32,000 nt of DNA, taken from contig NZ_PQWO01000012.1 of assembly GCF_003231495.1 (NCBI RefSeq), positions 60,001 to 92,000 on the forward strand, in the 5' to 3' direction. Positions within the stretch are counted from its first letter, which is position 1; the number at the start of each line of letters is the position of its first letter. Positions 1-23,572 of the stretch are shown here, piece after piece. A program made the position numbers and the translations under genes. The notes under the pieces are model-generated. The model had not been told where the DNA came from and searched no databases. It saw only the letters and a program-made list of their open reading frames with translations. The DNA is from Acaryochloris thomasi RCC1774. GTDB taxonomy: Bacteria > Cyanobacteriota > Cyanobacteriia > Thermosynechococcales > Thermosynechococcaceae.

Positions 1-375
1 CCAATGCTCCTGTCGCCAGGATTCTAGAGTCCGATCCTCTTCACCTTCGTCATAGGCAAACTGAGTATCCACTTCGCTGAAGGATCGAATATTGATCTCT
101 ACTGTTTCAATAATGCAGATAGGGGCACCTTCACCATTCAGAATGACCGTTTTTATCCCCATCATCTCATTGGGATCCGTTTGTTCCACCTCCCATTCCC
201 AAAGAGAGGAACAGGTGGCCGTTTTCACGCCATCTAGAACCAGTTGACCAAGGTCATTCGCGAGCTGGGCTGTATCGCCAAATTGATCAACGAGGTAGGC
301 TGCGTCCGGTTCGGTACCGGCTGGCAGGGCTTTGAGATAGCGATGCCAGCATTGTTCGATCTGTCTCTTGTTCAT
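1..375 (-). CDS. ASCH domain-containing protein (N-terminal 125 codons only; gene runs off the left window edge)
   Basis: Absent from the ORF track because it is truncated by the edge. A minus-strand ATG at 375 opens a frame that stays open to nt 1: MNKRQIEQCWHRYLKALPAGTEPDAAYLVDQFGDTAQLANDLGQLVLDGVKTATCSSLWEWE...FAYDEGEEDRTLESWRQEHW. This fits the ASCH/PUA-like pattern (FGD..la.el..LVl.G.KTAT ... fA.dEGE.DrsLe.Wr..H). Confidence 0.6.
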   Translation of the reverse strand, partial: MNKRQIEQCWHRYLKALPAGTEPDAAYLVDQFGDTAQLANDLGQLVLDGVKTATCSSLWEWEVEQTDPNEMMGIKTVILNGEGAPICIIETVEINIRSFSEVDTQFAYDEGEEDRTLESWRQEHW

Positions 376-1270
376 AGCGATTCTTCGGTGACCAATGATG
401 TTGGAGAAAGGCTCCTGCTTCTGAGATCGCAACTCTCCCCTCCTCCAACATGGGTGCAAACAACTGAAAGCAGTGAATCATGTCTTGCCAAACCTTGAGT
501 TCTACGGCAACGTTGGCCAATGCCGCCTGATGGGCAAGCCGCAGAGCGTCGCCGAGTAAAATCTCTGCTGCCCCGACGTGAATCAGAAGCGGCGGTAGGC
601 CAGATAGATCAGCATAGATCGGTGAGATCAGAGGGTCCTTCACGTTCTCATGGGGAGCATACCAAGCAGTAAGAGTATCCATCAGTGTCCGAGATACCAT
701 CAGATCGAGGTGGCCATGAGTATCAATGGTGGAGCTGGTTTGGGTCAGATCGCAGTAGGGCGAGATCAGTAGCCCTGAAGAAGGCAGTATCTCTTTGGTA
801 TCCCTTAAAGACAGCAGGGCTGCCAAAGCGAGATTGCCCCCAGCGGAGTCGCCTGCGATCGCAACTTGGCTGGGATGAAACCGACGTGTCTCAACAAGCC
901 AGCGATAAGCCGTCAGCGTATCTTCTAGCGCTGCTGGGTAAGGATGCTCCGGTGCAAGGCGATAGTCAATCACCAACACCCTTGCGGATGACGCCTCTGC
1001 TAGATCGCTAGCAATACGTCGATAGGTTTGGCGTGTTCCCATGACAAAACCGCCCCCATGAAGATACAGAATGACGCGATCTGGATCACTATTGGGAAGG
1101 GTAATCAGCTCGGCAGGAACACCATCAGCATCGAGGGTCTGAACCTGGGCTGTGGGATGGGACGGCAGAGAAAAGCAGCGGTTAAAGTTCGCTCTCATCT
1201 CGGCGAGTGTATCGCCCCAAGAAAAATCCTGCAGCATCGAAAGAATGTTGTTCAGTTCATTTTGACTCAT
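287..1270 (-). CDS. alpha/beta hydrolase, hormone-sensitive-lipase-type esterase/lipase
   Basis: 327-aa ORF with the oxyanion motif LHGGGF and the nucleophile elbow GDSAGG, both typical of the alpha/beta hydrolase fold-3 (HSL) family. The C-terminal ~35 aa overlap the next gene. Confidence 0.9.
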   Translation of the reverse strand: MSQNELNNILSMLQDFSWGDTLAEMRANFNRCFSLPSHPTAQVQTLDADGVPAELITLPNSDPDRVILYLHGGGFVMGTRQTYRRIASDLAEASSARVLVIDYRLAPEHPYPAALEDTLTAYRWLVETRRFHPSQVAIAGDSAGGNLALAALLSLRDTKEILPSSGLLISPYCDLTQTSSTIDTHGHLDLMVSRTLMDTLTAWYAPHENVKDPLISPIYADLSGLPPLLIHVGAAEILLGDALRLAHQAALANVAVELKVWQDMIHCFQLFAPMLEEGRVAISEAGAFLQHHWSPKNRYEQETDRTMLASLSQSPASRYRTGRSLPR

Positions 1271-1353
1271 GATTAAGAAGGCTCCATATGAAGAACTGAA
1301 GGAAACGCAAGTACGAGGCTGTCTCTACGCTCCACTTAGCTGTTTGGTTTGGA

Positions 1354-1923
1354 CTATGCTTCGATCTGAATCTGAGGCACGATACTTACAGGGTTGGCCA
1401 TATTCCATAGGTTGGGCGAAGCCATCAGGGTCATCTCATAGATCTCTTGGAACTGTTTAGCGGTTGCGTCTCCTTTGACGATCAGTGTCCAATACAGTGA
1501 CTGACAACCAGGGACAATACTGGGATCGAGTCCAAAGAATCCACGCAGGTCTAAATACCCGCTGCTTTTAATCTCTGCCTTCTCTAGGCGAATTCCGTAG
1601 GCGGTGCAAAGCTCAGTGAAGGTTGCCAGAATGCAGGAATTAATTGCCGATAGCAGCACCTCTTGGGGATTGGGGCCCAAGTTTGAGCCACCGATTTCTT
1701 TTGGCTCATCAATCACCAGGGTGAAATCGCGATCATAGGTTTCACTGCCCCAATCAAAGGACTTGACGTGAGAGATAGAACGGGGACCGTCGACCCAGGC
1801 GCTTGAGACCTGGAAGGTTAGCTTGGCCTGGAGGGGATTGGTTGCGATCGCACCCGATAACTCTTCGAGTTCATTGAGATCAAAACCATTGAGAGTCTGT
1901 GCTTGTTGAGTTTGCATCATCAT
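1354..1923 (-). CDS. OsmC/Ohr family protein (peroxiredoxin-like)
   Basis: 189-aa ORF with GPNPQEVLLSAINSCILATF (the OsmC signature G.NP.ElLl.Al..C) and a second Cys in VPGCQS. Confidence 0.75.
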   Translation of the reverse strand: MMMQTQQAQTLNGFDLNELEELSGAIATNPLQAKLTFQVSSAWVDGPRSISHVKSFDWGSETYDRDFTLVIDEPKEIGGSNLGPNPQEVLLSAINSCILATFTELCTAYGIRLEKAEIKSSGYLDLRGFFGLDPSIVPGCQSLYWTLIVKGDATAKQFQEIYEMTLMASPNLWNMANPVSIVPQIQIEA

Positions 1924-2000
1924 TTTCCTTATCTAGAAATATAGAGGTCATTGAATAGAGTGATAGGTGCCCCCATTCGTTGTCTTGCTGAAGCATTGCC

Positions 2001-2930
2001 TCAAGAGAAAGCCTGCGTTGTCTCAGCAATCAGGTCATACCCATCAGGCCCTAACGTGCGCACGCTCTCTACAAAGTTGGGGTGGGTCATCCCTGCAACA
2101 AGAAAGGTTTGCTGATAGGAAACCGTTTGTTGTTGCTGAATCGCTTCTCTGTCAGTGAGAGAAAGCGATCGCTCGGTCACTCGCTCCAGACTGTCAATAT
2201 CGAGCTGCACCTGGTTTATCAGTCCTGCATTGAGGTACTGAATAACAGCGATGTAATCATCAATGCCGGTGGCAATGGCTGCAGCATCTAAGTCTCGGGC
2301 CATTGACTGCACCATCAGCGTATCGAGTCGAGCGTGTTGGGCTTCTTCCTGCCAGTGATGCTTTAACAGACTGCAGAACTGCGGATCGAGGTTCTCTCGC
2401 TGATTTTCACGCACGCTTTCGAGAAAGTGACGTTGGGTCATCCATTCAATGTGTAGTGTCATCAGAGCGACACCGAGAGAACTGTGCTGGAGAATGAAAC
2501 GGGCGATCGCCGATGATGGACCAATACAGTCATAAGGACTGCCGAACCCAGCTTCAAAAGCTTCTGCAAACCGACGGAACAAATGGATATGCTTGCTTTC
2601 TTCGCTTGCAACGCCCAGGAAAGCTTGAGTTGCTTCAATCTCATCACTGCCAATCGCCTGAATATGATTAACCACTAAGGGCAAGATGGCTTCCTCTAAA
2701 ACGCTAAATAAATATAAGTAGCTGTTGCCGCGAATCTGGTTGAGCTTAAGTTGCTCTGCAGAACTCAGGCTGGCGATGGCCCCTGTGTGAGCGAGTCCCT
2801 CAGGGAGGAAGGGTTTGAAAAAATCAAGCGAGTTTTTATCGTTAATCAAATCCTGGACACGCCAGTTGATTTTGGTCGCGTCTTTCAAGATTGATGAATA
2901 GGTATTGTCATAAGTTATAAGAGCGGCCAT
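2001..2930 (-). CDS. ferritin-like diiron oxygenase (AurF / N-oxygenase-like family)
   Basis: 309-aa helical ORF with two ExxH diiron motifs (ASEESKHIHLF and WQEEAQHARLD) plus additional conserved Glu (VLEEAIL, HIEWMTQRH). The layout resembles AurF-type diiron oxygenases. Confidence 0.7.
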   Translation of the reverse strand: MAALITYDNTYSSILKDATKINWRVQDLINDKNSLDFFKPFLPEGLAHTGAIASLSSAEQLKLNQIRGNSYLYLFSVLEEAILPLVVNHIQAIGSDEIEATQAFLGVASEESKHIHLFRRFAEAFEAGFGSPYDCIGPSSAIARFILQHSSLGVALMTLHIEWMTQRHFLESVRENQRENLDPQFCSLLKHHWQEEAQHARLDTLMVQSMARDLDAAAIATGIDDYIAVIQYLNAGLINQVQLDIDSLERVTERSLSLTDREAIQQQQTVSYQQTFLVAGMTHPNFVESVRTLGPDGYDLIAETTQAFS

Positions 2931-2996
2931 GAAACCTCTTGTTTTTGAGTGAAAGTTGCTGAGTTGCCGAAAGCGTGTTGCCTCAACCTTGATTTC

Positions 2997-3050
2997 AGGC
3001 TAGAGAAGAGGGCGTTCCCGAAGCGTTCTTGAAACGTTCCTGAGACGTCT
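2997..3050 (-). promoter_or_regulatory. candidate promoter plus activator operator: four 11-bp-phased direct repeats abutting a -10 box (site A)
   Basis: On the plus strand CGTTC occurs at 3013, 3024 and 3035, and CGTCT at 3046, in exact 11-nt phase. In gene sense the array ends ...GGGAACGC, followed by 9 nt (CCTCTTCTC) and TAGCCT (TAnnnT, plus 2997-3002). The start codon of the diiron oxygenase is at 2930. The block is nearly identical to 15876-15907. Confidence 0.6.
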
Positions 3051-3338
3051 GGTCCTATTGGGAACAGGCACTGTTATGCCTTCAAACTGGGGTTCTCCAA
3101 AGGCGGTAAAGTCATTGAGATTAAGCGGGTCGGCATTGCCCTTCTGCAGCACAGCCAGCTGAGTACTGCCAAGGCGGAGGGTCGCCTTGTTCGCTTACTG
3201 AATAACGTCAAGATCTTCAAAGAGGAGTCCGTTCGACAGTCCGATCGGGTCTACAACTGTTGGAGAATTCCAGACACAAAAAAGCCGCCCTGGAGAACGG
3301 CCTTGGTAAATCCAATTGCTCTAAAAAACAGAGTCTGA
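3033..3338 (+). pseudogene. possible remnant of a LysR-type regulator (C-terminal substrate-binding part only)
   Basis: A stop-to-stop frame of 101 codons contains no ATG, GTG or TTG. It translates to ...KVIEIKRVGIALLQHSQLSTAKAEGRLVRLLNNVKIFKEESVRQSDRVYNCWRIPDTKKPPWRTALVNPI. This resembles the LysR C-terminal pattern (GlGIalLP......l..GrLV.ll........ly.vwr....sp..raf). The HTH and first ~200 aa are absent. Confidence 0.3.
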
Positions 3339-3348
3339 AATACTATGC

Positions 3349-4101
3349 TCACGTCAGGTTGAGTCCACCATCAGAGAGTAATATCTCGCCTGTAATGTAG
3401 TGGCTCACAATTAACATAGAAGCCACTTGTGCGATTTCTTCTGGCTGTGCGCCTCGACCCATAGGCGCCCGCATCTTCCAAAGCTCTCTTGCGGCAGTCC
3501 AATTCTGGCTCATAGGGGTGTTCACTAGGCCGGGTGCGATCGCATTCACCCGAATCGATGGTGCCAAACTCACCGCCAGCAATTTGGTCATATGGTTCAA
3601 AGCAGCTTTACTGACCGAATAGGGAACCGAAGCTCCCTTCGGTCGAATCCCGGCATGGGAACTGATATTTAGAATGCAGCTTGGGCATTCCTGACTTGAG
3701 GACTGGCGCAACGCGGCTTCAGCTTCGGTGATCAGTGTCCACGGCGCAATGACGTTGACTTCATACAGATCGCGCCAGATTTCCGGCGATGCTTCTTTTA
3801 ATGCCGTATGGGGGATTGCGGCGGTCACGCCAGCATTATTAACCAATGCATCTAGGCGACCGTAATGAGATAAAACCTCAGCGATTAACTGACGAGCTTG
3901 ATCTTGATCTGATAGATCAGCTTGGAAATAGGAGGCATCTGGGTATGCCGCAGCTAATTCTCGCCCTGCCGTCACGGAGGATTTGGAATGAAAGGCAACA
4001 GCGAAGTTGTCTCGAGCGAGCTGAGCTGCGATCGCTTTTCCAATGCCAGAAGTTGAGCCCGTCACCAGCGCAACTCTTTTGGGGTCCTTATCTCTGATCA
4101 C
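3349..4101 (-). CDS. SDR family oxidoreductase (short-chain dehydrogenase/reductase)
   Basis: 250 aa with the cofactor motif VTGSTSGIGKAIA, NNAG, and the catalytic S...YSVSKAA (YxxxK). Confidence 0.9.
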   Translation of the reverse strand: MIRDKDPKRVALVTGSTSGIGKAIAAQLARDNFAVAFHSKSSVTAGRELAAAYPDASYFQADLSDQDQARQLIAEVLSHYGRLDALVNNAGVTAAIPHTALKEASPEIWRDLYEVNVIAPWTLITEAEAALRQSSSQECPSCILNISSHAGIRPKGASVPYSVSKAALNHMTKLLAVSLAPSIRVNAIAPGLVNTPMSQNWTAARELWKMRAPMGRGAQPEEIAQVASMLIVSHYITGEILLSDGGLNLT

Positions 4102-4285
4102 AACTTGGCGCTTCTCATTTTGCTAAACTCAACCGACCGAGCCGTCCCCTAGAACTGATTTCAAACTATTCAGACCGGCACTCTCAAAGTGTTCTCTGGA
4201 CTTTGCAGCAATTCTTACACCTGGAGGAAGATGCCAATACCACTTCGAGAATGGCTAATCAGAAGCTCTCTACTGATGCGATGAT

Positions 4286-4678
4286 CTAAGAATGAACCTC
4301 ACTGACAATCATTGCATCGATCTCCACGAGTTGATGCTCATAGGCCAGTCGCGCTACGCCCAGTAATGTAGCTGGGGGGACATCATTGTTGAACCACTCC
4401 GTAACCGCCTGCCATGCAGCCATGAGAGTTGGATGATCTCCAACGACGTAGATTTTTAGCTGGCGAATATCACGTTTATCAAAACCATGCAGCGTGATTA
4501 GCGTTCGCAAATTACCAAGGCACTGATTCACCTGAACATGGGGCTTGCCGATGCCAACCAGATTTGCCTCAGAATCGTGCGGCACCTGACCGGAAATGAA
4601 CAGTTGTGGACCAATGCGCTGAGCATATTGGTAGTTAGGAGTCTGGGCTAGCCCTGCTGCTATTTCATGCTCGTTCAC
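4286..4678 (-). CDS. RidA/YjgF/endoribonuclease L-PSP family protein
   Basis: 130 aa with LFISGQVP..., IKIYVVG and a C-terminal LVEIDAMI, typical of the RidA fold. Confidence 0.8.
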   Translation of the reverse strand: MNEHEIAAGLAQTPNYQYAQRIGPQLFISGQVPHDSEANLVGIGKPHVQVNQCLGNLRTLITLHGFDKRDIRQLKIYVVGDHPTLMAAWQAVTEWFNNDVPPATLLGVARLAYEHQLVEIDAMIVSEVHS

Positions 4679-4827: not shown

Positions 4828-5100
4828 TCAATGAGAGGCGGCGGCCACTGCAGGCGTAATCAGATCGACGGTCCAAATGCGGACAAAAGGTAGCCCAGCT
4901 TTACGAAAGGACCGCTGGACGGTCTCAGCATCAGGAGCCTCAAATTCACAGATGACCTGGGTGCGATCGCAACCCATCATCGACCTCACCCAGTGAACGT
5001 TGTGGGCTGTATGGCAAGGAATGCCAATGGCAACATCTCGGTCCCATTTTTCTGGTGTAATCGGTGGATCAAAATGCTTTTCAACAAGGACGCGGACCAT
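4828..5100 (-). CDS. DUF4242 domain protein (SCO4226-like small alpha/beta protein)
   Basis: 90 aa. The pattern ...HWVRSMMGCDRTQVICEFEAPDAETVQRSFRKAGLPFVRIWTV matches the DUF4242 consensus as I recall it (W..s..s.D......C.yeApd.e.vre...raglp.d.i.ev). Confidence 0.55.
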   Translation of the reverse strand: MVRVLVEKHFDPPITPEKWDRDVAIGIPCHTAHNVHWVRSMMGCDRTQVICEFEAPDAETVQRSFRKAGLPFVRIWTVDLITPAVAAASH

Positions 5101-5244: not shown

Positions 5245-8200
5245 CTAAGCTGTGTGGATAGGAGCGTCTAGCTGGGTCGATATATTTGCGATCGCAACTC
5301 TAGCCCGAGCAGCCAGACCCAGCGGATTTATTTTCTGCAGGTCTCGAAAATGCGTCTCAGCAAGCTCAAGCTCGCCAATTGCTAGATAACCCTGAATCAA
5401 CGTTGCCAACACCAGGGCAACATCACTAGGATGATCAACAACTCGGGCTGCCTCCAGCGCCATTTGGCATCGGGAGATAGCGCGTTGGGGTTCGCCTCGC
5501 TCCAAGTCTTTCTCCGCAGCGGACGTCAGCGTATAGGCCAGACTTCGCTGAGCATCGACGCATTTCAGCCTGTCTAACGTCTGTTCTAACTCCGTTTCAG
5601 CTTCTGAAGGCTGCAGCCAGTATTGCGATAAAGCCACCAGCGCCGCTGCAACAGCCCCTTCATTGCCACCGCCAAGCTGAGCGGCAACAGTCGTGAGTTG
5701 CCGACAATAATCTAATGCCGCAATCGCATTTCCGCTTTCAAGTTCTAGCATCGCTAAATATGAAACACAGGTGAATTCTCGCCAGTGATCCTGCATATAT
5801 TGGGCAATCTGCCGCGCCTGCGTCAGCAACAGACGCGCCTGCTCATCGTCACCGTGATACCGGCGAACACAGCCTAGCCCACAGGGAATATCGAAGGGTT
5901 CTAGCCCGACTCGACTAGCCAGAGATTGAGCCTCTAACAGCAGAGCCTCAGCCCGCTCCATCTCGCGGCCAATATCCGATAGACACCAGCCTGTATAGGC
6001 CAGCATTTGAGCCATCACGGTAGGACTTGCGCTGCGACCTTGTTCTACGGCCTTCAGACACTGTTGATGGACATCTGCGAGATTGTCTTGCTCATAGTGC
6101 AGCGCAATCAGAACTTCTAGCCCTAGAGCCTCTTCATCTGGCAGGCTGAGTCTTCGGGCCTCTAGCAGTAGCTGGTTCAAGCTGACTTCGACCTGCTGGG
6201 CCTGCACTTTATCCATCCCAGCCAGCACACAAACCTTGAGCAGACGCAAATGCAGACTGATTCGGACTTCAGGTGGTAAAGATTGGCACTGTTCAATCCC
6301 CCACCGCGCCAGTGCTGCGGCATCAGTATAGGCAAACAGGCGCAGGCCGCGTTCGGCTGCTGCCAGTAGAGATGTCGCGGCAAGTTCAGGATCCTGCCCT
6401 ATGGCTGCGTGACGGGCAATATCACTGGCTAAAGCGTCATCAGAACTCGTCAGTTTCTGTAGCTGGTGAGCGATATGTCGATGCATCAGCCGTCGACGAG
6501 GCTCAGAGGGTTGGCCATAGGCAACCTGTCGGACAACATCATGGGTAAAGAGATAGACCGCTTCACCGTCATCCCTAATGTCTGGACTGAGAATACCCTG
6601 CTGTTCTAGCTCTTCTATCGCGGTCAAGAAGGTTGTCAGCGGACAGTCCGCGATCTGAGCGACCTGCATTGGATCAAAGCTGCGCCCCATTGCTGCAGCC
6701 CAGGTCAAAAGATCCTGTGTAGAAGTGTCGAGCTGCTGCAGCCGCTCCTGAACTAGCGCCTCTAAGTTGTCAGCATCCGCTGAGTAGCCAGATGCGATCG
6801 TACGCGCAATTTCCAGGGCAAACAGGGGATTGCCACCGCTGTCGGTATAGATGCGATCGCTATCCAAATCCGCGTCAATGGTCTGGGTCAGCTCCGTCGT
6901 GGCCTGACGATCCAATGGCTCTAGGGGGATGACTTGGAGTTTGCGATCGCGTCTGAGCGTTTTCACGAGCTGACAAGCTGCGGCGTTGGCTTCCAGATCT
7001 CGGTGACGGGCTGCACAGGCAAACTGAATCGACGAGTGTCCCAACAGGCAAACAACATAGTTCAGCAGGGCCGTCGAAATTTCATCAAGCCATTGAATGT
7101 CGTCAAAAATGATCACCAGCGGGACTGACTGCTTCGCCAGCCCAGTCAGGTATTCAGCCACTGCATCGAAGAGGCGACTACGATCGATCTGAAGTTCCGG
7201 GTCACCCGGCTCAGGGAAGAGTGTTCCCAGTTCAGCAGGGAGCTGGCTAGGCAGCGCATCCAGCCAAATGCTGAAGGGCCTGACTTTTTCAGCTTCAAAC
7301 CCACGTCCCCAAAGCACCTGTCCCCCCATATCCTGGACCGCTGAACGCAGCGTTTCCAGAACTCGGGTTTTGCCAATGCCTGATTCTCCTAGCAACAGCA
7401 GAGATAAGTGAGAGCCGAGCCACCCTTGAATCATTTCCCATTCTTGCCGACGTCCGATGAGAGATGACGTTGAGGGTAGAGTCGCGAGTGGCTTCCCCTG
7501 AGAAGCGGCTATAGGAACGTTAGATATCTCAGCATTCGTCGCTGCAGCGGTCTTAATTTGCTCAACAGCACCCAACTGCTTGAGCGACATTCTCTGAGCT
7601 TCGGTTAGCCCCCTTGCATGGAGGATATTGGTTCTGTCATAGGGGCGCGCACCGCGCAGGACCGCCACACATTCGCCCGTTTCTCGGTCCCAGAGGTGAA
7701 CCGTTTCATCCTGGCTGCCGCTAGCCAGCAGGTGACCCTCAGGGCTAAAGGTTACGGCCCAAGCCAGATTGGTGTGTCCCTCCAAGGTCTGGAGACAGCC
7801 TCCTGTTCGTACATCCCAGAGCTTGACTGTTTTATCGCTGCTGGCGCTGGCGAGACATTGACCATCAGGACTAAAGGCCACGGACCACACCCGACTGCTG
7901 TGACCTTCGAGTGTTTTCAAGCACTGGCCCGTTTTCAGATTCCAGAGCTTGATGGAATGGTCTCCGCTACCGCTGGCGAGGTGTTGCCCATCGGGACTCA
8001 AGGCAATGGACCAGACCCAGTTGCTGTGCCCCTCAAGGGTCTGACAGCAGGCTCCCGTAAAAGGATCCCAAATTTTAATGGTTTGGTCATAGCCACCACT
8101 GACCAACCTGAGGGATTCGGCTGGGCAAAAAGCCACTGAACAGACCCAGTTTGTGTGCCCCTTCAACGTGCGTAAGCATTGGCCCGTATGGACATCCCAA

Positions 8201-11200
8201 AGTTTAATCGTTTGATCTTCACTGCCGCTGGCTAAGAGGCCCCCCTCTGGACTGAAGGCAACTGACCAAATCCTGCTGGTGTGTCCTTTCAAAGTCCGTA
8301 AACACTGGCCGGTCTCAAGATCCCAGAGCTTGATGGTTTGGTCTTCGCTGCCGCTGGCGATCAGATGATCTTGGGGACTGAATCTAACGGCACAGACGGC
8401 ATCGGTATGTCCTGACAGCGTTTGCCGATAGGTCGGTCCTTCTACATTCCACAGCTTGATCTGGTGGTCGTCATTGGCGCTTGCCAAAATGCCGCCGTAG
8501 GGATGTTGCGCAGAACCGGGACTGAAGGCAACGGACCAGACGCGATCAATATAGCCCTGGAGTGTTCTCTGGCACTGACCGTTGGTCCCCCATAGCTTGA
8601 CGGTGTTGTCACCACTGCCGCTAGCGAGGGTTTTTCCATCGGGGCTGAAGGCGACAGAGCGAATCCAGTTACCATGTCCTCGAAGGGTTTGACGACAGTT
8701 CCCTGAAGCGATTTGCCAGAGCCTGATGGTCCTATCTTCGCTGCCGCTGGCGAGGGTTTCTCCGTCAGGGCTGAAGGCAATGGAGCGCACCCAGTTGGTG
8801 TGTCCAGACAAGGTTTGAATACAGTGGCCGGTCTGAGTGTCCCAAAACTTGATCGTGCAGTCGCTGCTGCTGCTGGCTAGTCTGTTGCCTGAGGCATAGG
8901 CTAAGGACCACACCCGTTTTGAGTGCCCCTCTAGCGTCTGTTCACACCGTCCCGTTTCCGTCGCCCAGAACTTAATAGTTTGATCATCACTGCCGCTGGC
9001 GATTGTTTTCCCGTTGGGGCTGAAGGTGACGGAGCGCACCCAGTCGGTATGGCCGGTTAGGGTCTGGTGACAGGCTCCTGTTTCTAAGTCCCAGAGCTTG
9101 ACGGTGTGATCTTCGCTGGCGCTGGCGAGGAGGGGTGTTGTGGGGTGGAAGGCCACTGACCAGACTTGAGCTTTGTGATCAAACGTTTGCCGACATTGAC
9201 CTGTTTCTAGATCCCAGAGTTTGATGGTGCGATCGCTACTCCCGCTCGCCACAGTACCGCCATCGGGACTAAAGGCCACGGACCAGATCCAGTCTGTATG
9301 TCCCGAACAAATAAGCAGATTTCGGCCATCCTCAACGCTCCAGATGCGAATCTCACCTTTCGCATCTCCAGTGGCTAGACGTGTTCCATCAGGGCTGAAC
9401 GCTAGTGCTAGCGGCAAGCTCAGCGTTTCTATAAAGGCAGCCTGAGACAGATCAGCCTCCTGTAGGTTGCAGTCGGATAAATGAACCCGACGTAAATCGG
9501 CCTGCCGCAGCGCTAGTCCTGAGAAGTCATAGTGCTCCAAGACCGGGCTGGACTGGCTCAGCAGATTGAGAATGTTGCCCGCCGCGTAGCTCGACTGTAA
9601 GGTGGGATCGCTGTGCAGCCCCGCCAGAGCCTGACGCAAGCAGGGTTCACTGTTCGCCTCGCTGCCGCACTGACCGGACAAACCGTTGAGGACCGGCTGC
9701 AGAATCTCTCGAATTTGAATTTCGCGAATGTAGTCGCTACTCTGAGCCTTGAGCAAAGTATGGGTGCAGAAAAGGGCGGTGGCAGATAGATTCTCCTGCT
9801 CTGCTTCCGTCTCTGAAACTTGACCAAGAGTCAAAATCTCATGGCAAACCTGGTCTACAAGCTGTGCAGTAACGTACTCCATAACCACTGGCTGTTGGGC
9901 ATAGCGGCCTGCTTGTTTTTCAAGTAGCGATCGCCACATCAGCGACTCCAGGGCTTCTAGGAGTGCCGACCGCGAGGTTTGAGGCACAAGATCTTCGGCG
10001 AGTTCAGCAATCGCAGTCCACTCCCGGTTGATGGCTAACCAATACATGACCGATTGCTCTAGGGGCGTGCAGCGCTGGAACTGCTGTTCTAATAGTTGAT
10101 GAATACCGCTGAAGATGCCTGCGCCGGGTCGATGGAAGGCGGCAATGTCACCATCAAACAAGTCTTGAATGGAGGTGGCGACAATTTTTAGGGCCAAGGG
10201 ATTGTGGCCGTAGAACTGGCACAGGTCCTGCTGCTGTTGTTCTGTTCCGATCAGACCCTTGGTCTGGACCAGGGTCATCGCGGCTTCTGGCGAACCATTC
10301 AATAGGAGCGATCGCACCGGCAGATCCATGCCCTCTAATGCAGAAAATTCTCGCGGCTTCTCGCGGCTGGTGAGGATCAAGCAGCTTTGATGGTGGGTCT
10401 CTCCCATCAACCGCAGGAGTTCTCCGTAGTTTTCGTAGCCGGGGTGATACTGTCCAGAGCGCTGGTCTCCTTTTAAAAGCGTTTCAACGTTGTCTAGAAT
10501 CAGCAGGCATCGGGTCTGACGCAGGCCATCCATCAAACGAGCTAAGGTTGGCTCTGTTTCCTGCTGGTCAGAGATAATGGGGACGATCTCACCCATTAGG
10601 GTTTCTAGGCTAGGGGCATTCCGCAGAGATCGCCAAACAATGCAGTCAAATTTATCGTCAGCATCAGACCCTAATTGAGAATGCTCAACGAGGACCTGTG
10701 CTAGCTTCACCGATAGGGACGTCTTGCCAATACCGCCCATGCCTAGCAAGACAATGACGCGACAGCGATCCGCCAGGGTCCACTGCTCCAGCATTTCTAG
10801 TTCATCGGCACGTCCATAGAAGAGGCTGACATCCGGAGCGTTTCCCCAGTCGCAGCGTAGAGAGGAAGCTCCTGTTGATGTCTCGGAGGCTGATCGGTGG
10901 ACCTCTACGTATCTATCTTGCTGGGCATTTTGGTGATTTGTTAATAACGCTGGTTCGTCGAGGAGATGTTGATAGAAGGCTTGAATTGATTGACTGGGGT
11001 CGATTCCTAGCTCTTCTTGTAGGGTCGTCATGCAGCGATGATAGACCTGCAGGGCTTGGGTGCGGTCGCCGTTGGCGAGATGCGATCGCATCAAGTATTC
11101 ATAAGCAGTTTCACTCAGCGGATCCATCTGCAGAAGCTGCTGGGCATAGCGAATCACCTGGCTATGGTCTCGCTGTATCTGCAAAAGCTGCAGCAGCCCT

Positions 11201-11772
11201 GCATAAGCTTGAATGCAGGATTGATGGAGTCGCTCGCGCTCAGCTTCAATCCACTCGTCATAGCAGCTCGGCAGTAATTTCCCTTCATAGAGCTTGACTG
11301 CCTGCTGCAGAGCTGAGCCAATTGTTTTCAACTGCTCGGGCTGACGGGTTACAAGCTCATCTGACTGATCGACGAACAAAGAGACAGCTCGCTCAAACTC
11401 ATTGACATCAAGGGTATAGGGAGACTCTAAACGCCACTGGATGGACTGTGTGTCAACCGCAATGAACTGCTCTGAATCTGGAAAAACCTGGCGCAGAGAA
11501 TGGAGATTTCGTCGCAGGTTCGTTCGCGCCTGCGAGTCACTGGAGTCTGGCCAGAGGCGAAATGCAATCTGCTGTCGAGATTGAGGCGTATGTCGATGCA
11601 GCAGCAAGTAGGCCAGCAGGGACTGCAGCCGCTTCGGTATCTTCCCACCGATGGACTTTTGTTTGTAGATCAGGTCAAAGCCACCTAAGAATCTTATTCG
11701 TAAGATTTTTGGCACACTCACATACCTTCTTGAAACGGTGGAAGCTTCAAGTGGATAGCCCCACGATCTCAT
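5245..11772 (-). CDS. giant STAND regulator: SARP (OmpR-type wHTH + BTAD), NB-ARC, pentapeptide, 14 WD40 repeats, fused to a second AAA_16 P-loop and TPR-like module
   Basis: Single 2175-codon ORF.
- wHTH+BTAD, about 10945-11715: ILRIRFLGGFDL...LLAYLLLHRHTPQSRQQIAFRLWPD...LRRNLHSLRQ, then LYEGKLLP..YDEWIEAERERL...ALQVYHRCMTTLQEELGIDPS.
- NB-ARC: Walker A GMGGIGKT at 10720-10743 and Walker B CLLILDNVE.
- Pentapeptide-like tract at 9435-9531.
- WD40 array at 7650-9411.
- Second P-loop LLLLGESGIGKT at 7366-7389 and Walker B LVIIFDDIQWLDE at about 7085-7122.
- Helical/TPR-like tail from about 6500 down to 5245.
The true start may be the GTG at 11715 (AGAAGG lies 9 nt upstream), which would give (M)PKILRIRFLGG. 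Confidence 0.9.
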   Translation of the reverse strand: MRSWGYPLEASTVSRRYVSVPKILRIRFLGGFDLIYKQKSIGGKIPKRLQSLLAYLLLHRHTPQSRQQIAFRLWPDSSDSQARTNLRRNLHSLRQVFPDSEQFIAVDTQSIQWRLESPYTLDVNEFERAVSLFVDQSDELVTRQPEQLKTIGSALQQAVKLYEGKLLPSCYDEWIEAERERLHQSCIQAYAGLLQLLQIQRDHSQVIRYAQQLLQMDPLSETAYEYLMRSHLANGDRTQALQVYHRCMTTLQEELGIDPSQSIQAFYQHLLDEPALLTNHQNAQQDRYVEVHRSASETSTGASSLRCDWGNAPDVSLFYGRADELEMLEQWTLADRCRVIVLLGMGGIGKTSLSVKLAQVLVEHSQLGSDADDKFDCIVWRSLRNAPSLETLMGEIVPIISDQQETEPTLARLMDGLRQTRCLLILDNVETLLKGDQRSGQYHPGYENYGELLRLMGETHHQSCLILTSREKPREFSALEGMDLPVRSLLLNGSPEAAMTLVQTKGLIGTEQQQQDLCQFYGHNPLALKIVATSIQDLFDGDIAAFHRPGAGIFSGIHQLLEQQFQRCTPLEQSVMYWLAINREWTAIAELAEDLVPQTSRSALLEALESLMWRSLLEKQAGRYAQQPVVMEYVTAQLVDQVCHEILTLGQVSETEAEQENLSATALFCTHTLLKAQSSDYIREIQIREILQPVLNGLSGQCGSEANSEPCLRQALAGLHSDPTLQSSYAAGNILNLLSQSSPVLEHYDFSGLALRQADLRRVHLSDCNLQEADLSQAAFIETLSLPLALAFSPDGTRLATGDAKGEIRIWSVEDGRNLLICSGHTDWIWSVAFSPDGGTVASGSSDRTIKLWDLETGQCRQTFDHKAQVWSVAFHPTTPLLASASEDHTVKLWDLETGACHQTLTGHTDWVRSVTFSPNGKTIASGSDDQTIKFWATETGRCEQTLEGHSKRVWSLAYASGNRLASSSSDCTIKFWDTQTGHCIQTLSGHTNWVRSIAFSPDGETLASGSEDRTIRLWQIASGNCRQTLRGHGNWIRSVAFSPDGKTLASGSGDNTVKLWGTNGQCQRTLQGYIDRVWSVAFSPGSAQHPYGGILASANDDHQIKLWNVEGPTYRQTLSGHTDAVCAVRFSPQDHLIASGSEDQTIKLWDLETGQCLRTLKGHTSRIWSVAFSPEGGLLASGSEDQTIKLWDVHTGQCLRTLKGHTNWVCSVAFCPAESLRLVSGGYDQTIKIWDPFTGACCQTLEGHSNWVWSIALSPDGQHLASGSGDHSIKLWNLKTGQCLKTLEGHSSRVWSVAFSPDGQCLASASSDKTVKLWDVRTGGCLQTLEGHTNLAWAVTFSPEGHLLASGSQDETVHLWDRETGECVAVLRGARPYDRTNILHARGLTEAQRMSLKQLGAVEQIKTAAATNAEISNVPIAASQGKPLATLPSTSSLIGRRQEWEMIQGWLGSHLSLLLLGESGIGKTRVLETLRSAVQDMGGQVLWGRGFEAEKVRPFSIWLDALPSQLPAELGTLFPEPGDPELQIDRSRLFDAVAEYLTGLAKQSVPLVIIFDDIQWLDEISTALLNYVVCLLGHSSIQFACAARHRDLEANAAACQLVKTLRRDRKLQVIPLEPLDRQATTELTQTIDADLDSDRIYTDSGGNPLFALEIARTIASGYSADADNLEALVQERLQQLDTSTQDLLTWAAAMGRSFDPMQVAQIADCPLTTFLTAIEELEQQGILSPDIRDDGEAVYLFTHDVVRQVAYGQPSEPRRRLMHRHIAHQLQKLTSSDDALASDIARHAAIGQDPELAATSLLAAAERGLRLFAYTDAAALARWGIEQCQSLPPEVRISLHLRLLKVCVLAGMDKVQAQQVEVSLNQLLLEARRLSLPDEEALGLEVLIALHYEQDNLADVHQQCLKAVEQGRSASPTVMAQMLAYTGWCLSDIGREMERAEALLLEAQSLASRVGLEPFDIPCGLGCVRRYHGDDEQARLLLTQARQIAQYMQDHWREFTCVSYLAMLELESGNAIAALDYCRQLTTVAAQLGGGNEGAVAAALVALSQYWLQPSEAETELEQTLDRLKCVDAQRSLAYTLTSAAEKDLERGEPQRAISRCQMALEAARVVDHPSDVALVLATLIQGYLAIGELELAETHFRDLQKINPLGLAARARVAIANISTQLDAPIHTA
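7650..9411 (-). repeat. intragenic array of 14 WD40 repeat units (~126 nt each, two predicted 7-bladed propellers)
   Basis: Fourteen units fit GH(T/S)xW(V/I)xSVAFSPDGxxLASGSxDxTIKLWDxxTGQCxxTL. Each ends in (I/V)(K/R/H)(L/F/I)W: IRIW, IKLW, VKLW, IKFW, IKFW, IRLW, VKLW, IKLW, IKLW, IKLW, IKIW, IKLW, VKLW, VHLW. Neighbouring units look only about two-thirds identical at nucleotide level by eye. Confidence 0.9.
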
Positions 11773-14699: not shown

Positions 14700-15776
14700 T
14701 TAGCTCTTTTTGACGATGTAGAAATTATTCTGAAAGTCGTGGTCGAGCTGCTTGATTTCCACTTGCTTGAATCCGGCCTCTTCTAGCATCTCTAGCGCTT
14801 TTTCTTCTCCCCACATGGCTCCAAGCCCCAAGCCCCCAGCGGCGAGAGAAACGGTCATGCAGTGCAGACAAGAGATGGTGTAAAGCAATGGCCCAACTGG
14901 ATGCTCTAGGTTCCCGCTCACGTCACTAGCGGCGCGAATATCCTGCATGAAGTAGGTACCGTTGGGTCGTAAGGCCCGGTAGATGTTATTGAGGACCACA
15001 TCAGGTTTGGCCTGATCGTGGATTGCATCAAAGGTGGTGATCAAGTCGTACTGCTCGACAGCATCCAGGGTCGCGGCATCCTTGATCTGGAACCGGACGT
15101 TGGTCAACCCTTGGGACTGCGCTTCAATGTTGGCAGTTGCGATCGCTTCTTCCGAAAAATCATACCCAGTAAAGCGACTGTGAGGGAACAGCATCGCCAT
15201 CTGATTGAGAGCACGACCGCTACCGCAGCCAACATCCATAACCTCAATGCCGCGCTCTAAAGCATCAACCAAACCGGGCATGAGGGGCAAAACATGCTCC
15301 ATTAATGCTGCAACGACCGTTTGGCCACTATCTTCGGCCATCACTTGGTGAAAGCGCTTATATTCTGAATAGGGAACGCCACCGCCGCTGTAGAAGCAGT
15401 CGATTACTTGGTCTTCAACGCTGCCCAGTAGTGGAATGTACTGACTAAATGCTGCCAAATTATTGGGGGAGGCAGTGCGGGTCAAGAAGGCCGCATGTTC
15501 TGACGGCAGATGATAGGTTTGCTCGATGGCGTTATAGTCCACAAATCTTGCGGTTACCATTGCCCCCAGCCACTCGCGGACGTAACGTTCTTGCAGTCCA
15601 GCAGCATCAGCAACGGCCTGACTTGTCGCAGGAGGGAGCTGAGCTAGGGTATCAAATAGACCGGTACGGTGACCGATGGAGGTCATAAGTGCGACTGCAC
15701 CACCGTTGAGCGTATCTAGAAGCCGATCGGCAAAAGCTTCGGCTTTCATCTCCTTGAACACTTGTGCTGTCATCAT
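14700..15776 (-). CDS. class I SAM-dependent methyltransferase with N-terminal winged-helix-like domain (Rv2258c-like)
   Basis: 358 aa with motif I VMDVGCGSGRAL, an acidic loop YDFSEEA, and post-I/II motifs DLITTFDAIHD and LRPNGTYFM. The N-terminal ~150 aa form a helical dimerisation/wHTH-like region. Confidence 0.85.
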   Translation of the reverse strand: MMTAQVFKEMKAEAFADRLLDTLNGGAVALMTSIGHRTGLFDTLAQLPPATSQAVADAAGLQERYVREWLGAMVTARFVDYNAIEQTYHLPSEHAAFLTRTASPNNLAAFSQYIPLLGSVEDQVIDCFYSGGGVPYSEYKRFHQVMAEDSGQTVVAALMEHVLPLMPGLVDALERGIEVMDVGCGSGRALNQMAMLFPHSRFTGYDFSEEAIATANIEAQSQGLTNVRFQIKDAATLDAVEQYDLITTFDAIHDQAKPDVVLNNIYRALRPNGTYFMQDIRAASDVSGNLEHPVGPLLYTISCLHCMTVSLAAGGLGLGAMWGEEKALEMLEEAGFKQVEIKQLDHDFQNNFYIVKKS

Positions 15777-23535: not shown

Positions 23536-23572
23536 GACATTCTCTAAAGAGCGTTGAGCATTATTCAGGAGA

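What the first reader, a model, noticed from the sequence alone, without database searches (positions are those of the whole stretch)
5245..11772. A 2175-aa ORF with two STAND NTPase modules: a complete SARP-NB-ARC-pentapeptide-WD40x14 protein fused in frame to an AAA_16-TPR protein
Seen in sequence: aa 1-1402 already form a complete architecture. It has an OmpR-type wHTH plus BTAD, an NB-ARC with GMGGIGKT and LLILDNVE, a pentapeptide tract and 14 WD40 repeats.

This part ends with RPYDRTNILHARGLTEAQRMSLKQLGA (ending at nt 7567). As I recall, this motif normally forms the extreme C-terminus of cyanobacterial WD40 and pentapeptide proteins.

Without any stop codon, the frame continues through a ~35-aa low-complexity linker (VEQIKTAAATNAEISNVPIAASQGKPLATLPSTSS). 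It then enters what looks like the normal N-terminus of an AAA_16 regulator: LIGRRQEWEMIQGWL..LLLLGESGIGKTRV, with Walker B LVIIFDDIQWLDE. About 600 aa of TPR-like helices follow.

So one polypeptide combines one DNA-binding output, two P-loop switches and two different repeat sensors (propellers and TPR). Large SARPs such as AfsR carry a single NB-ARC+TPR. I do not know of a described regulator with this tandem-STAND layout.

STAND NTPases with WD40 or TPR sensors also serve as phage sensors (the Avs type). A transcriptional effector arm in that role would be unusual.
Basis: partly seen in the sequence, partly recalled or inferred. Interest (0 to 1): 0.8.

Follow-up and report, generated by a model that had tools for sequence, protein, structure and literature searches.

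The report
SARP regulator with two STAND switches
This is a real, conserved 2156-2175-residue cyanobacterial transcription regulator in which one DNA-binding head is followed by two different ATP-driven sensor modules, a rare and undescribed layout that seems to have arisen more than once by gene fusion.

Summary
Window 5245-11772 (minus strand) is one open frame of 2175 codons. GenBank starts it 19 codons later, giving 2156 aa (WP_158535129.1, Acaryochloris thomasi RCC1774).

Domain order:
- SARP head (wHTH + BTAD)
- NB-ARC, then a pentapeptide tract, then 14 WD40 repeats
- the C-terminal tail that normally ends such proteins
- a disordered linker of about 35 aa
- an AAA_16 STAND NTPase with a TPR-like sensor

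It is not an artefact. An independently assembled MAG carries the same open frame at 94% aa identity, with dN/dS 0.12 for the first half and 0.21 for the second. Three more diverged fused homologues exist (about 45-56% identity).

The second half is not a free-standing AAA_16-TPR protein. It is the local SARP-AAA_16-TPR regulator, a very common ~1030-aa cyanobacterial family that sits next to a DUF4242/SCO4226-like gene. Its own SARP head has been replaced by a whole SARP-NB-ARC-WD40 gene.

Each half of the window protein is closer to unfused genes than to the other fused proteins, which points to at least two independent fusions.

I found no defence-system signal. The function as a two-input transcription activator is inferred, not shown. 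I rate it a new variant of a known kind, of moderate interest.

The parts
5245..11772 (-). Whole fused ORF. 2175 codons from the first ATG. GenBank and RefSeq start at GTG 11715 (2156 aa, WP_158535129.1); another caller starts at GTG 11721 (2158 aa). Stop codon at 5245-5247.
10960..11631 (-). SARP head: OmpR-type wHTH (aa 48-102) plus BTAD (aa 122-271). It is of the A type, that is, closest to the heads of SARP-NB-ARC-WD40 proteins.
   Evidence: Pfam. AfsR and EmbR PDB matches. It is 62% identical to the P0122/P0121 heads but only 41% to the P0001 head.
9538..10821 (-). First STAND module: NB-ARC/NACHT NTPase plus helical ARC-like region (aa ~318-745). Walker A GMGGIGKT (K350), Walker B LLILDN (D427), TSRE, NPLAL.
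   Evidence: 69% identity to stand-alone P0121
9436..9534 (-). Short pentapeptide-repeat tract (aa ~747-779) between the NOD and the propellers.
   Evidence: 24.7 bits, cutoff 20.2; also present in the other fused proteins
7648..9420 (-). 14 WD40 repeats (aa ~785-1375), enough for two seven-bladed propellers: the sensor of module 1.
   Evidence: 14 stretches, 536.7 bits
7558..7647 (-). Tail motif RPYDRTNILHARGLTEAQRMSLKQLGAVEQ (aa 1376-1405), which is the normal extreme C-terminus of this WD40 family. The ancestral stop codon would have been just downstream of it.
   Evidence: family C-termini; L001 ends ...LKQLGALEQSKPPTATSS*
7462..7557 (-). Low-complexity linker (aa 1406-1437). The first ~11 aa resemble the tail extension of the closest stand-alone A gene. 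The last ~20 aa resemble the BTAD-to-AAA_16 linker of B-type relatives. It is predicted to be disordered.
   Evidence: pLDDT 30-40 for residues 1-33 of the model; dN/dS 0.48
6517..7461 (-). Second STAND module: AAA_16 NTPase plus helical and winged-helix domains (aa ~1438-1752). Walker A GESGIGKT (K1468), Walker B VIIFDD (D1557/D1558), GGNPLF.
   Evidence: Pfam AAA_16, 69.9 bits; motifs; model and fold matches to 6mfv, MalT and Apaf-1
5266..6504 (-). TPR-like helical-repeat sensor of module 2 (aa ~1757-2169).
   Evidence: AF2 model: helical hairpins, pLDDT mostly above 90. Fold matches to TPR proteins. 57% identity to P0001/P0002.
4828..5100 (-). SCO4226-like / DUF4242 gene (90 aa), 144 nt downstream on the same strand. 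It is the conserved partner of B-type and of all fused regulators.
   Evidence: Pfam. It lies directly downstream in L003-L005 and L026-L030, and in 36 of 74 evaluable loci.
287..4678 (-). Co-directional downstream genes: RidA (4286-4678), SDR (3349-4101), a 309-aa AurF-like protein (2001-2930), OsmC (1354-1923), an alpha/beta hydrolase (287-1270). Candidate regulon, by inference only.
   Evidence: RidA, SDR, GST and methyltransferase recur downstream of B-type regulators in L003-L005

Best explanation
What it is: a large SARP-family (AfsR-like) transcription regulator of Acaryochloris thomasi. One SARP DNA-binding and activation head is followed, in a single polypeptide, by two complete STAND NTPase switches:
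- module 1: NB-ARC + pentapeptide + 14 WD40 repeats
- module 2: AAA_16 NOD + TPR-like sensor
A disordered linker of about 35 aa joins them.

Origin (shown). The C-half occupies the position of the ordinary ~1030-aa SARP-AAA_16-TPR regulator, which sits immediately upstream of a DUF4242/SCO4226-like gene in many cyanobacteria. In this lineage a whole SARP-NB-ARC-WD40 gene, up to and including its C-terminal tail, took the place of that regulator's own SARP head. The simplest route (inferred) is a deletion running from the stop codon of an upstream A-type gene to the end of the BTAD of the B-type gene. The fused gene is kept by purifying selection. The same architecture occurs in three other lineages and most likely arose at least twice.

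How it works (inferred from AfsR, MalT and Apaf-1, not shown here). Each STAND module holds the protein inactive until its sensor is engaged and ADP is exchanged for ATP. With two modules behind one head, release or multimerisation of the SARP domain on promoter repeats would depend on two inputs. That would make the protein a two-signal integrator for the adjacent DUF4242 gene and nearby small stress or detoxification-type genes.
For: Architecture:
- Pfam hits and PDB matches of the head to AfsR and EmbR.
- AF2 model of the C-half with fold hits to STAND-TPR 6mfv, MalT 8bob and Apaf-1 3sfz.
- Walker A/B and GxP motifs of both modules intact in all five fused proteins.

Reality and selection:
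- Same ORF in A. thomasi RCC1774 and in MAG GCA_039814705.1, at 94% aa and 94% nt identity, open across the junction.
- dN/dS 0.116 for the A half and 0.213 for the B half.

Origin:
- The C-half is 57-58% identical to P0001/P0002, which are SARP-AAA_16-TPR proteins; alignment begins right after their BTAD.
- Same downstream neighbours: SCO4226-like, RidA, SDR, Rv2258c-type methyltransferase.
- The window head is only 40-43% identical to the heads of P0001-P0004, although heads within the B family are at least as conserved as C-parts. It is 62% identical to the heads of the A-type P0121/P0122.
- The whole N-part is 69% and 67% identical to P0121 and P0122.
- A-type proteins normally stop 2-3 aa after ...LGA. 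The closest stand-alone A gene (L001) stops 12 aa after it, with a tail resembling the start of the window linker.

Other fused genes:
- P0254, P0261 and L029/L030 have the same domains, and each is followed by an SCO4226-like gene.

Non-monophyly:
- B tree: WIN+MAG group with the unfused P0001-4 in 100 of 100 bootstraps.
- A tree: WIN+MAG group with P0121/P0122 in 100 of 100.
- A clade of all fused proteins appears in 0 of 100 replicates of either tree.

Mechanistic precedent:
- In AfsR the NOD and TPR domains inhibit SARP-driven activation, and ATP binding relieves the inhibition (PMC10936776).
Against: - No expression, binding or ATPase data exist for this protein or for any cyanobacterial SARP that I could find.
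- I found no direct-repeat operator near the gene and no promoter or terminator signal above chance, so the target genes are guesses from synteny.
- The DUF4242 gene often overlaps or abuts the regulator. That suggests co-transcription rather than being a regulated target.
- AND-type logic is only one of several possibilities. OR logic is possible, or one module may have become a scaffold.
- Among about 90 B-type loci I saw no tandem A-then-B gene pair that would make the proposed deletion easy. The only WD40 neighbours lie on the opposite strand.
- The trees are neighbour-joining on limited sampling.
- The closest stand-alone A gene (L001) comes from a frameshifted read-archive contig.
Confidence: 0.6

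Rival explanations
1. Neutral accident. A recent deletion fused two regulators, and one half (most likely the AAA_16-TPR half, now without its own DNA-binding head) is functionless baggage on its way to decay.
For: - The fusion is rare: 2 of the 80 best metagenome loci and 2 of the 150 top representatives.
- dN/dS is higher in the B half (0.21) and in the linker (0.48) than in the A half (0.12).
Against: - dN/dS of 0.21 over 773 codons still indicates clear purifying selection.
- The Walker A/B and GGNP motifs of the second module are intact in all five fused proteins, which are as little as ~45% identical to each other.
- The same layout persists in four lineages.
Confidence: 0.1
2. Single ancient fusion. 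The architecture arose once and was inherited. The apparent closeness of each half to unfused genes would then reflect later recombination with paralogues, fission, or tree artefacts.
For: - All fused proteins share the same domain order, the same junction logic (tail LGA-x-E, variable linker, then a conserved GR-x-x-EW motif, L[IV]GR in three of the four lineages) and the same downstream DUF4242 gene.
- They are 45-63% identical over their full length.
Against: - B tree: WIN+MAG group with the unfused P0001-4 in 100 of 100 bootstraps.
- A tree: WIN+MAG group with P0121/P0122 in 100 of 100 bootstraps.
- A clade of all fused proteins appears in 0 of 100 replicates.
- Pairwise identities agree: the B part is 57% to P0001 but 42-52% to other fused proteins, and the A part is 69% to P0121 but 44-54% to other fused proteins.
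- P0001-4 carry typical B-type heads, which fission could not create.
- The linkers differ in length (about 15-50 aa) and sequence.
Confidence: 0.2
3. Anti-phage or NLR-like immune sensor (Avs-type). The WD40 and TPR arms recognise phage proteins and the SARP head switches on a defence programme.
For: STAND NTPases with TPR or WD40 sensors include many defence proteins, and defence and non-defence clades are interspersed in the superfamily (PMC13581612).
Against: - No PADLOC model reaches significance; the best hits are 14-18 bits.
- There is no nuclease, protease, TIR or other immune effector domain.
- The neighbours are housekeeping and small-molecule enzymes.
- The C-half sits at a syntenic locus conserved across many cyanobacteria, not in a variable island.
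Confidence: 0.05
4. Assembly or sequencing artefact. Two ordinary adjacent genes were joined by a mis-assembly in WD40 repeats or by a lost stop or frameshift.
For: WD40 repeat arrays do break assemblies. Examples here are the frameshifted L001, L002 cut at the contig end and the truncated gene on L109.
Against: - Two independent assemblies that differ at 6% of nucleotides both keep the 6.5-kb frame open through the junction.
- Three further diverged fused genes come from unrelated samples.
- The C-half has no SARP head of its own, so it cannot simply be an ordinary neighbouring gene.
Confidence: 0.02

Closest known systems
AfsR of Streptomyces coelicolor (a 'large SARP': SARP + NOD + arm + TPR; PDB 8k60, 8jke, 8hvr)
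   Same: - N-terminal OmpR-type wHTH + BTAD followed by a STAND NTPase. AfsR chains match window residues 30-340, and NCBIfam AfsR gives a partial hit.
- The C-terminal TPR-like sensor behind a NOD has the same logic.
- AfsR supplies the mechanistic precedent: NOD and TPR inhibit the SARP domain, and ATP relieves the inhibition.
   Different: - AfsR has one NOD and one sensor; this protein has two NODs of different STAND clades and two sensor types.
- It scores 68.7 bits against the 1430-bit cutoff of the AfsR model, so it is not an AfsR orthologue.
- It is cyanobacterial and not linked to an antibiotic gene cluster.
Cyanobacterial SARP-AAA_16-TPR regulators of about 1030 aa (for example P0001, P0002, Microcoleus P0046). 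They are architecturally like the actinobacterial SARP-LAL regulator PimR.
   Same: - The C-half (aa ~1428-2175) is 57-58% identical over about 750 aa.
- Same position upstream of the DUF4242/SCO4226-like gene, and the same kinds of neighbours.
- PimR is likewise a SARP head plus an ATP-binding LAL/cyclase-like C-half without a LuxR HTH (PMC5930380).
   Different: Their own SARP head directly precedes the AAA_16 domain. Here that head is missing, and about 1405 aa of another regulator stand in its place.
Cyanobacterial SARP-NB-ARC-(pentapeptide)-WD40 proteins of about 1350 aa (for example P0124, P0125, P0134; annotated as 'BTAD domain-containing' or 'NACHT domain-containing')
   Same: - aa 1-1405 match them end to end: 69% to P0121 and 43-55% to P0123 and the full-length members (P0124 onwards).
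- The match includes the terminal RPY...LGA tail.
   Different: They stop 2-12 residues after ...LGA. Here the frame continues for another 770 aa.
Classical STAND regulators and NLRs: MalT (8bob), PH0952 STAND-TPR (6mfv), Apaf-1 (3sfz). For tandem NB-ARC, the wheat NLR WTN1.
   Same: - The fold of the second module matches 6mfv, MalT and Apaf-1.
- A tandem arrangement of NB-ARC domains in one NLR has been reported in plants (bioRxiv 10.1101/2024.08.30.610185).
   Different: - MalT has a C-terminal LuxR HTH and a single NOD.
- WTN1 is a plant immune receptor with two NB-ARC domains of the same kind. Here the two NODs belong to different clades, each has its own sensor, and the output is a bacterial SARP head.

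Membership tests
STAND NTPases | P-loop NTPase with Walker A (GxxGxGK[ST]) and Walker B | tested here: met
   Met twice. Module 1: GMGGIGKT / LLILDN. Module 2: GESGIGKT / VIIFDD. Both are conserved in all five fused proteins. Pfam: NB-ARC 30.0 bits, NACHT 27.5 bits, AAA_16 69.9 bits.
STAND NTPases | NTPase followed by helical and winged-helix domains, then a C-terminal repeat sensor | tested here: met
   Module 2: the AF2 model (pLDDT 88.7) shows an alpha/beta NTPase, a helical domain, a small beta-hairpin (winged-helix-like) and about 400 aa of helical repeats. Its best fold hits are 6mfv (STAND-TPR), MalT and Apaf-1. Module 1: NB-ARC followed by about 270 helical residues and 14 WD40 repeats; no structure was modelled.
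SARP family (large SARPs, AfsR type) | N-terminal OmpR-type winged-HTH DNA-binding domain | tested here: inconclusive
   Trans_reg_C scores 21.3 bits, below the 26.2 cutoff. However, residues 30-340 align to AfsR and residues 20-256 to EmbR in the PDB (E 8e-11 and 1e-6).
SARP family (large SARPs, AfsR type) | BTAD (bacterial transcriptional activation domain) after the wHTH | tested here: met
   BTAD at aa 122-271, 91.7 bits, E 7e-26.
SARP family (large SARPs, AfsR type) | Binds heptameric direct repeats and activates transcription | not testable with these tools
   I found no convincing direct repeats near the gene. DNA-binding or reporter assays are needed.
AfsR orthologues (NCBIfam NF053617) | Full-length match above the curated cutoff | tested here: not met
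   68.7 bits against a cutoff of 1430, and only residues 23-360 match.
Cyanobacterial SARP-AAA_16-TPR regulators (B type) | Own SARP head immediately N-terminal to the AAA_16 domain, total length about 1030 aa | tested here: not met
   The alignment to P0001/P0002 starts after their BTAD. The window head is A-type: 41% to the P0001 head against 62% to the P0122 head.
Cyanobacterial SARP-AAA_16-TPR regulators (B type) | Sits directly upstream of a DUF4242/SCO4226-like gene | tested here: met
   Window 4828-5100. The same arrangement occurs in L003-L005 and in 36 of 74 evaluable loci.
Cyanobacterial SARP-NB-ARC-WD40 proteins (A type) | Protein ends a few residues after the RPY...LGA tail | tested here: not met
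   The family C-termini are listed. Here the frame continues for 770 aa.
Avs / anti-phage STAND systems | Match to a known defence-system model, an immune effector domain, or a defence-island context | tested here: not met
   The best PADLOC hits are 14-18 bits and none covers a stretch of the protein convincingly. The effector is a SARP head. The neighbours are metabolic or housekeeping genes.
MalT / LAL regulators | C-terminal LuxR-type HTH | tested here: not met
   No LuxR/GerE hit appears in the Pfam scan of the C-half. The model ends in helical repeats.

The most novel reading that the evidence does not exclude
Two different NLR-like switches have been wired in series behind one DNA-binding head, repeatedly and independently. 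Under this reading the fusion is a 'Rosetta stone'. In ordinary cyanobacteria the separate SARP-NB-ARC-WD40 and SARP-AAA_16-TPR regulators would already cooperate, physically or on the same promoters, much like paired sensor/helper NLRs. The fused form would be a single-molecule coincidence detector controlling a DUF4242-centred stress regulon.
Probability: 0.3. Interest if true: 0.75.

Novelty: new variant of a known kind. Interest (0 to 1): 0.55.

Why it matters
STAND/NLR proteins are normally described as one switch: one NOD, one sensor, one effector. A natural protein that is conserved, under selection and apparently evolved more than once, with two unlike NOD-sensor units behind one output, is a ready-made system for asking how NLR-type switches can be combined.

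It also points to two large and completely uncharacterised families of cyanobacterial SARP regulators, and to their conserved partner gene (DUF4242/SCO4226-like), as a functional unit.

It has no immediate practical use, and the sequence is already in GenBank under a generic name.

Tried and rejected
- Exact look-up of the 2175-aa ATG-start protein found nothing. Re-trying with GTG starts identified the source and the MAG copy.
- The genome-contig scan did not contain the source genome. It returned only unfused B-type loci at 53% identity or less, plus distant non-cyanobacterial hits.
- The third homologue search, with a junction profile (A1), was swamped by short WD40 proteins and showed no fused member, so it was of no use.
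- The first bootstrap script timed out. I redid it with a faster distance routine.
- One Pfam call failed on a frame error and was repeated.
- Direct-repeat operators: none in the upstream or downstream intergenic regions.
- Promoter or terminator relics at the junction: nothing above shuffled expectation.
- An internal start for separate translation of the C-half: the only in-frame Met nearby (EWEMIQ) is not conserved in the MAG copy (EWETIQ), so I rejected this.
- Tandem A-then-B gene pairs in about 90 B-type loci: none. Only divergently oriented NB-ARC-WD40 or WD40 neighbours turned up, in L003, L004, L012, L015 and L036.
- Apparently long N-terminal extensions in L055 and L077 are stop-free high-GC read-through, not domains.
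- L035 and L109, from one sample, could not be shown to be two pieces of one fused gene.
- BTAD-less 'stand-alone' AAA_16-TPR homologues (P0010, P0118, P0120) start at or right before the P-loop and look like truncated calls.
Full report

Window 5245-11772 holds a single open frame of 2175 codons on the minus strand, with no internal stop. The WD40 tail ...RPYDRTNILHARGLTEAQRMSLKQLGA ends at aa 1402 (nt 7567). A low-complexity stretch follows, and LIGRRQEW begins at aa 1438 (nt 7461).

Whole-protein Pfam output is swamped by beta-propeller models. Scanning the N-terminal 780 aa and the C-terminal 806 aa separately gives:
- BTAD 91.7 bits
- NB-ARC 30.0 bits and NACHT 27.5 bits
- Pentapeptide 24.7 bits
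- Trans_reg_C 21.3 bits, just under its cutoff
- AAA_16 69.9 bits (AAA_22 32.6 bits) in the C-half
- TPR_12 24.7 bits, sub-threshold
- 14 WD40 stretches

The weak wHTH call is backed by PDB matches of residues 30-340 to AfsR and of residues 20-256 to EmbR.

The weak TPR call is backed by structure. An AlphaFold2 model of aa 1403-2175, built on 60 homologues, has mean pLDDT 88.7. It shows a disordered first 33 residues, an alpha/beta NTPase, a helical plus small beta-hairpin region and about 400 residues of helical hairpins. Its best PDB fold matches are the archaeal STAND-TPR protein 6mfv (E 2e-11 over 729 columns), MalT (8bob) and Apaf-1 (3sfz).

So the second P-loop module is a genuine STAND NOD with a TPR-like sensor.

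**2. Where it comes from, and whether the fusion is an artefact**

The protein from the ATG start is not in the 15-billion-protein collection. The same ORF from either of two GTG starts, 17 or 19 codons downstream, is. It is PZD72003.1 / WP_158535129.1 of Acaryochloris thomasi RCC1774 on a 183-kb contig. The annotations are only 'MoaR1' or 'BTAD domain-containing putative transcriptional regulator'.

The same 90% cluster holds MEO0373913.1 from an independently assembled MAG (GCA_039814705.1). That copy is 2160 aa and 94% identical over the full length. Its frame is open through the junction even though the linker itself carries four substitutions.

A codon-by-codon comparison gives:

| Region | dS | dN/dS |
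|---|---|---|
| First 1383 codons | 0.24 | 0.116 |
| Last 773 codons | 0.11 | 0.213 |
| Linker | - | 0.48 |

Two assemblies that differ at 6% of nucleotides and both preserve a 6.5-kb frame, with both halves under purifying selection, rule out a mis-assembly or a lost stop. They also argue against a decaying accident.

**3. What the two halves are**

N-terminal part. The first 780 aa find a family of cyanobacterial SARP-NB-ARC-(pentapeptide)-WD40 proteins of about 1350 aa. The closest are P0121 (69%) and P0122 (67%). In one search, 26 of the 39 relatives listed end within 12 residues of ...RPYxxxNIxxVxGLTxAQxxxLKxLGA, most of them 2-3 residues after LGA. The closest stand-alone gene (L001, 70-74% identical, frameshifted contig) ends ...LKQLGALEQSKPPTATSS*. 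That ending resembles the window's ...LKQLGAVEQIKTAAATNAE. The beginning of the 'linker' is therefore the old tail of the first gene.

C-terminal part. Most of the 120 best hits are proteins of about 1030 aa with their own SARP/BTAD head in front of the AAA_16 domain. The window aligns to P0001 and P0002 (57-58% over about 755 aa) only from just after their BTAD. The few BTAD-less hits start at the P-loop and look truncated.

Within that family, head identity is at least as high as C-part identity: 78/76, 76/72, 72/67 and about 55/48%. The window head is only 40-43% identical to the heads of P0001-P0004, but 62% identical to those of P0121/P0122.

Conclusion: a whole A-type gene has replaced the head of a B-type gene. 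The leftover linker length fits a breakpoint at the A stop codon and at the end of the B BTAD. About 12 aa of A tail plus about 22 aa remain, against 22-26 aa between the BTAD and LIGR in P0001-4.

**4. Genomic context**

In the loci of P0001, P0002 and P0003, the ~1030-aa regulator is followed within 2-30 nt by an SCO4226-like/DUF4242 gene. RidA, an Rv2258c-type wHTH-methyltransferase, SDR and GST genes come next.

The window has the same set:
- DUF4242 (4828-5100), RidA, SDR, a 309-aa protein, OsmC and a hydrolase downstream
- the Rv2258c-type methyltransferase upstream (14700-15776)

So the C-half sits at its ancestral locus. An SCO4226-like gene lies directly downstream in 36 of the 74 loci from these searches that have enough flank. 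It is much better conserved than the regulator.

The rest of the window is ordinary chromosome: IF-3, HisIE, an MFS transporter, DedA-type proteins and an M50 peptidase. I saw nothing resembling a defence island. PADLOC gives only 14-18-bit noise.

**5. Is the architecture unique?**

No, but it is rare.
- A full scan of 1.84 billion representatives with aa 1100-2175 found only two proteins matched in one continuous stretch across propeller, tail, linker and AAA_16-TPR. They are P0254 (2169 aa) and P0261 (2111 aa).
- A metagenome scan with a junction profile returned 80 loci. Two of them (L029/L030, the same gene in two ENA assemblies, about 2220 aa) are fused. The other 78 are ordinary B-type genes.
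- All of the fused genes have BTAD, NB-ARC/NACHT, pentapeptide, WD40 and AAA_16 domains, and all are followed directly by an SCO4226-like gene.
- Both sets of nucleotide-binding motifs are intact in all five proteins.
- Their linkers differ in length (about 15 to 50 aa) and in sequence.

**6. One fusion or several?**

The window's C-half is 57% identical to the unfused P0001 but only 42-52% to the other fused proteins. Its N-part is 69% identical to the unfused P0121 but only 44-54% to the other fused proteins.

Neighbour-joining trees with 100 bootstraps give:
- window+MAG with P0001-4: 100 of 100
- window+MAG with P0121/P0122: 100 of 100
- a clade of all fused proteins: 0 of 100 in either tree

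P0001-4 carry typical B-type heads, which fission of a fused gene could not produce. The simplest reading is at least two independent fusions of the same kind. I put this at roughly 0.75, because the trees are distance-based and the sampling is limited.

I could not find the presumed precursor state, an A gene directly upstream of a B gene. In the two closest B-type loci an EAD4-NB-ARC-WD40 gene is the immediate neighbour, but it is divergently oriented. An unfused A-type locus (L110) also has an Rv2258c-type methyltransferase and an S-methyltransferase nearby. This hints that A-type and B-type regulators serve related gene sets.

**7. How it probably works (inferred)**

For AfsR, the NOD and TPR domains inhibit transcription activation by the SARP domain, and ATP binding relieves this (PMC10936776). 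MalT and Apaf-1 follow the general STAND scheme: sensor engagement, nucleotide exchange, oligomerisation.

By analogy, each of the two modules here should gate the single SARP head. The protein would then integrate two inputs: one through the propellers and one through the TPR-like solenoid. The disordered linker allows the two NODs to act on each other or on separate partners.

The conserved neighbours suggest a small-molecule, metal or redox stress regulon rather than immunity. They are a DUF4242 protein of the nickel-binding SCO4226 family (PMC4186839), RidA, SDR, OsmC, GST and methyltransferases. None of this is shown. I found no operator repeats and no literature on any cyanobacterial SARP.

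**8. Comparison with what is known, and verdict**

The closest described proteins are:
- AfsR (a large SARP with one NOD and a TPR sensor)
- the SARP-LAL regulator PimR (PMC5930380)
- MalT-type STAND regulators
- for tandem NB-ARC domains, only a plant NLR, WTN1

A 2026 survey of prokaryotic STANDs does not mention a tandem layout in the passages that mention transcriptional regulators or WD40 sensors.

The window protein fails the curated AfsR model (68.7 against 1430 bits). It also fails one defining feature of each parent family: it does not stop after the tail, and there is no head next to the AAA_16 domain. I therefore file it as a new variant of a known kind. It is real, conserved, rare and apparently recurrent, but functionally uncharacterised.

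Its description of the second half needs correcting, and its defence idea finds no support.

Noticed in passing
window 22540-23595 (-) and 23573-24544 (-): A radical-SAM protein with a DUF3641 domain overlaps a SAM methyltransferase gene by 23 nt. From memory this pairing resembles the cyanobacterial arsS/arsM arsenosugar genes. I did not test this.
   Followed up: no
window 14700-15776 (-); also L003 9159-10247, L004 7938-9026, L005 7749-8831, L110 16977-18050: An Rv2258c-like wHTH + SAM-methyltransferase gene recurs next to B-type regulators, next to the fused gene and next to an unfused A-type regulator. It may be a shared target or partner of both regulator families.
   Followed up: partly
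L003 197-3886 (-) and L004 1-3255 (-): In the two closest unfused B-type loci, the immediate divergent neighbour is an NB-ARC-WD40 STAND gene, with an EAD4 N-terminal domain on record for the L003 copy. Its NB-ARC is 47-50% identical to that of the window protein. So a propeller-type STAND is associated with this locus even where it is not fused.
   Followed up: partly
window 7648-9534 (WD40 region) compared with L026: Synonymous divergence between the window and the MAG copy is about 0.34 in the pentapeptide/WD40 region, against 0.11-0.19 elsewhere in the same gene; dN/dS is still 0.12. This may reflect exchange between repeats within the gene.
   Followed up: no
window 3349-4678 compared with L026 7598-8285: The MAG copy of the locus lacks the RidA and SDR genes that lie between the DUF4242 gene and the 309-aa gene in the window. 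Gene content downstream of the regulator therefore varies between close relatives.
   Followed up: no
window 4828-5100 (-) and its homologues in L003-L005, L027, L028, L030: The DUF4242/SCO4226-like protein is far better conserved than the regulator beside it. It is roughly 80% identical between loci whose regulators are about 57% identical, with invariant PCH..H and ICEFEAPD motifs. In several loci it overlaps or abuts the regulator's stop codon.
   Followed up: partly
L001 5490-5520: The closest stand-alone A-type gene carries a frameshift in its WD40 region, so the gene caller split it into 1076-aa and 286-aa products. This could be an assembly error or a pseudogene. It limits how firmly 'unfused' can be asserted for that lineage.
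   Followed up: partly
window 21052-21735 (-) and 21748-22497 (-): Two adjacent paralogous VTT/DedA-family membrane protein genes.
   Followed up: no
window 11715-11772: Start codon ambiguity. The 19 codons between the first ATG and the annotated GTG start are open and nearly identical in the MAG copy. Homologues, however, begin about where the GTG start lies.
   Followed up: partly
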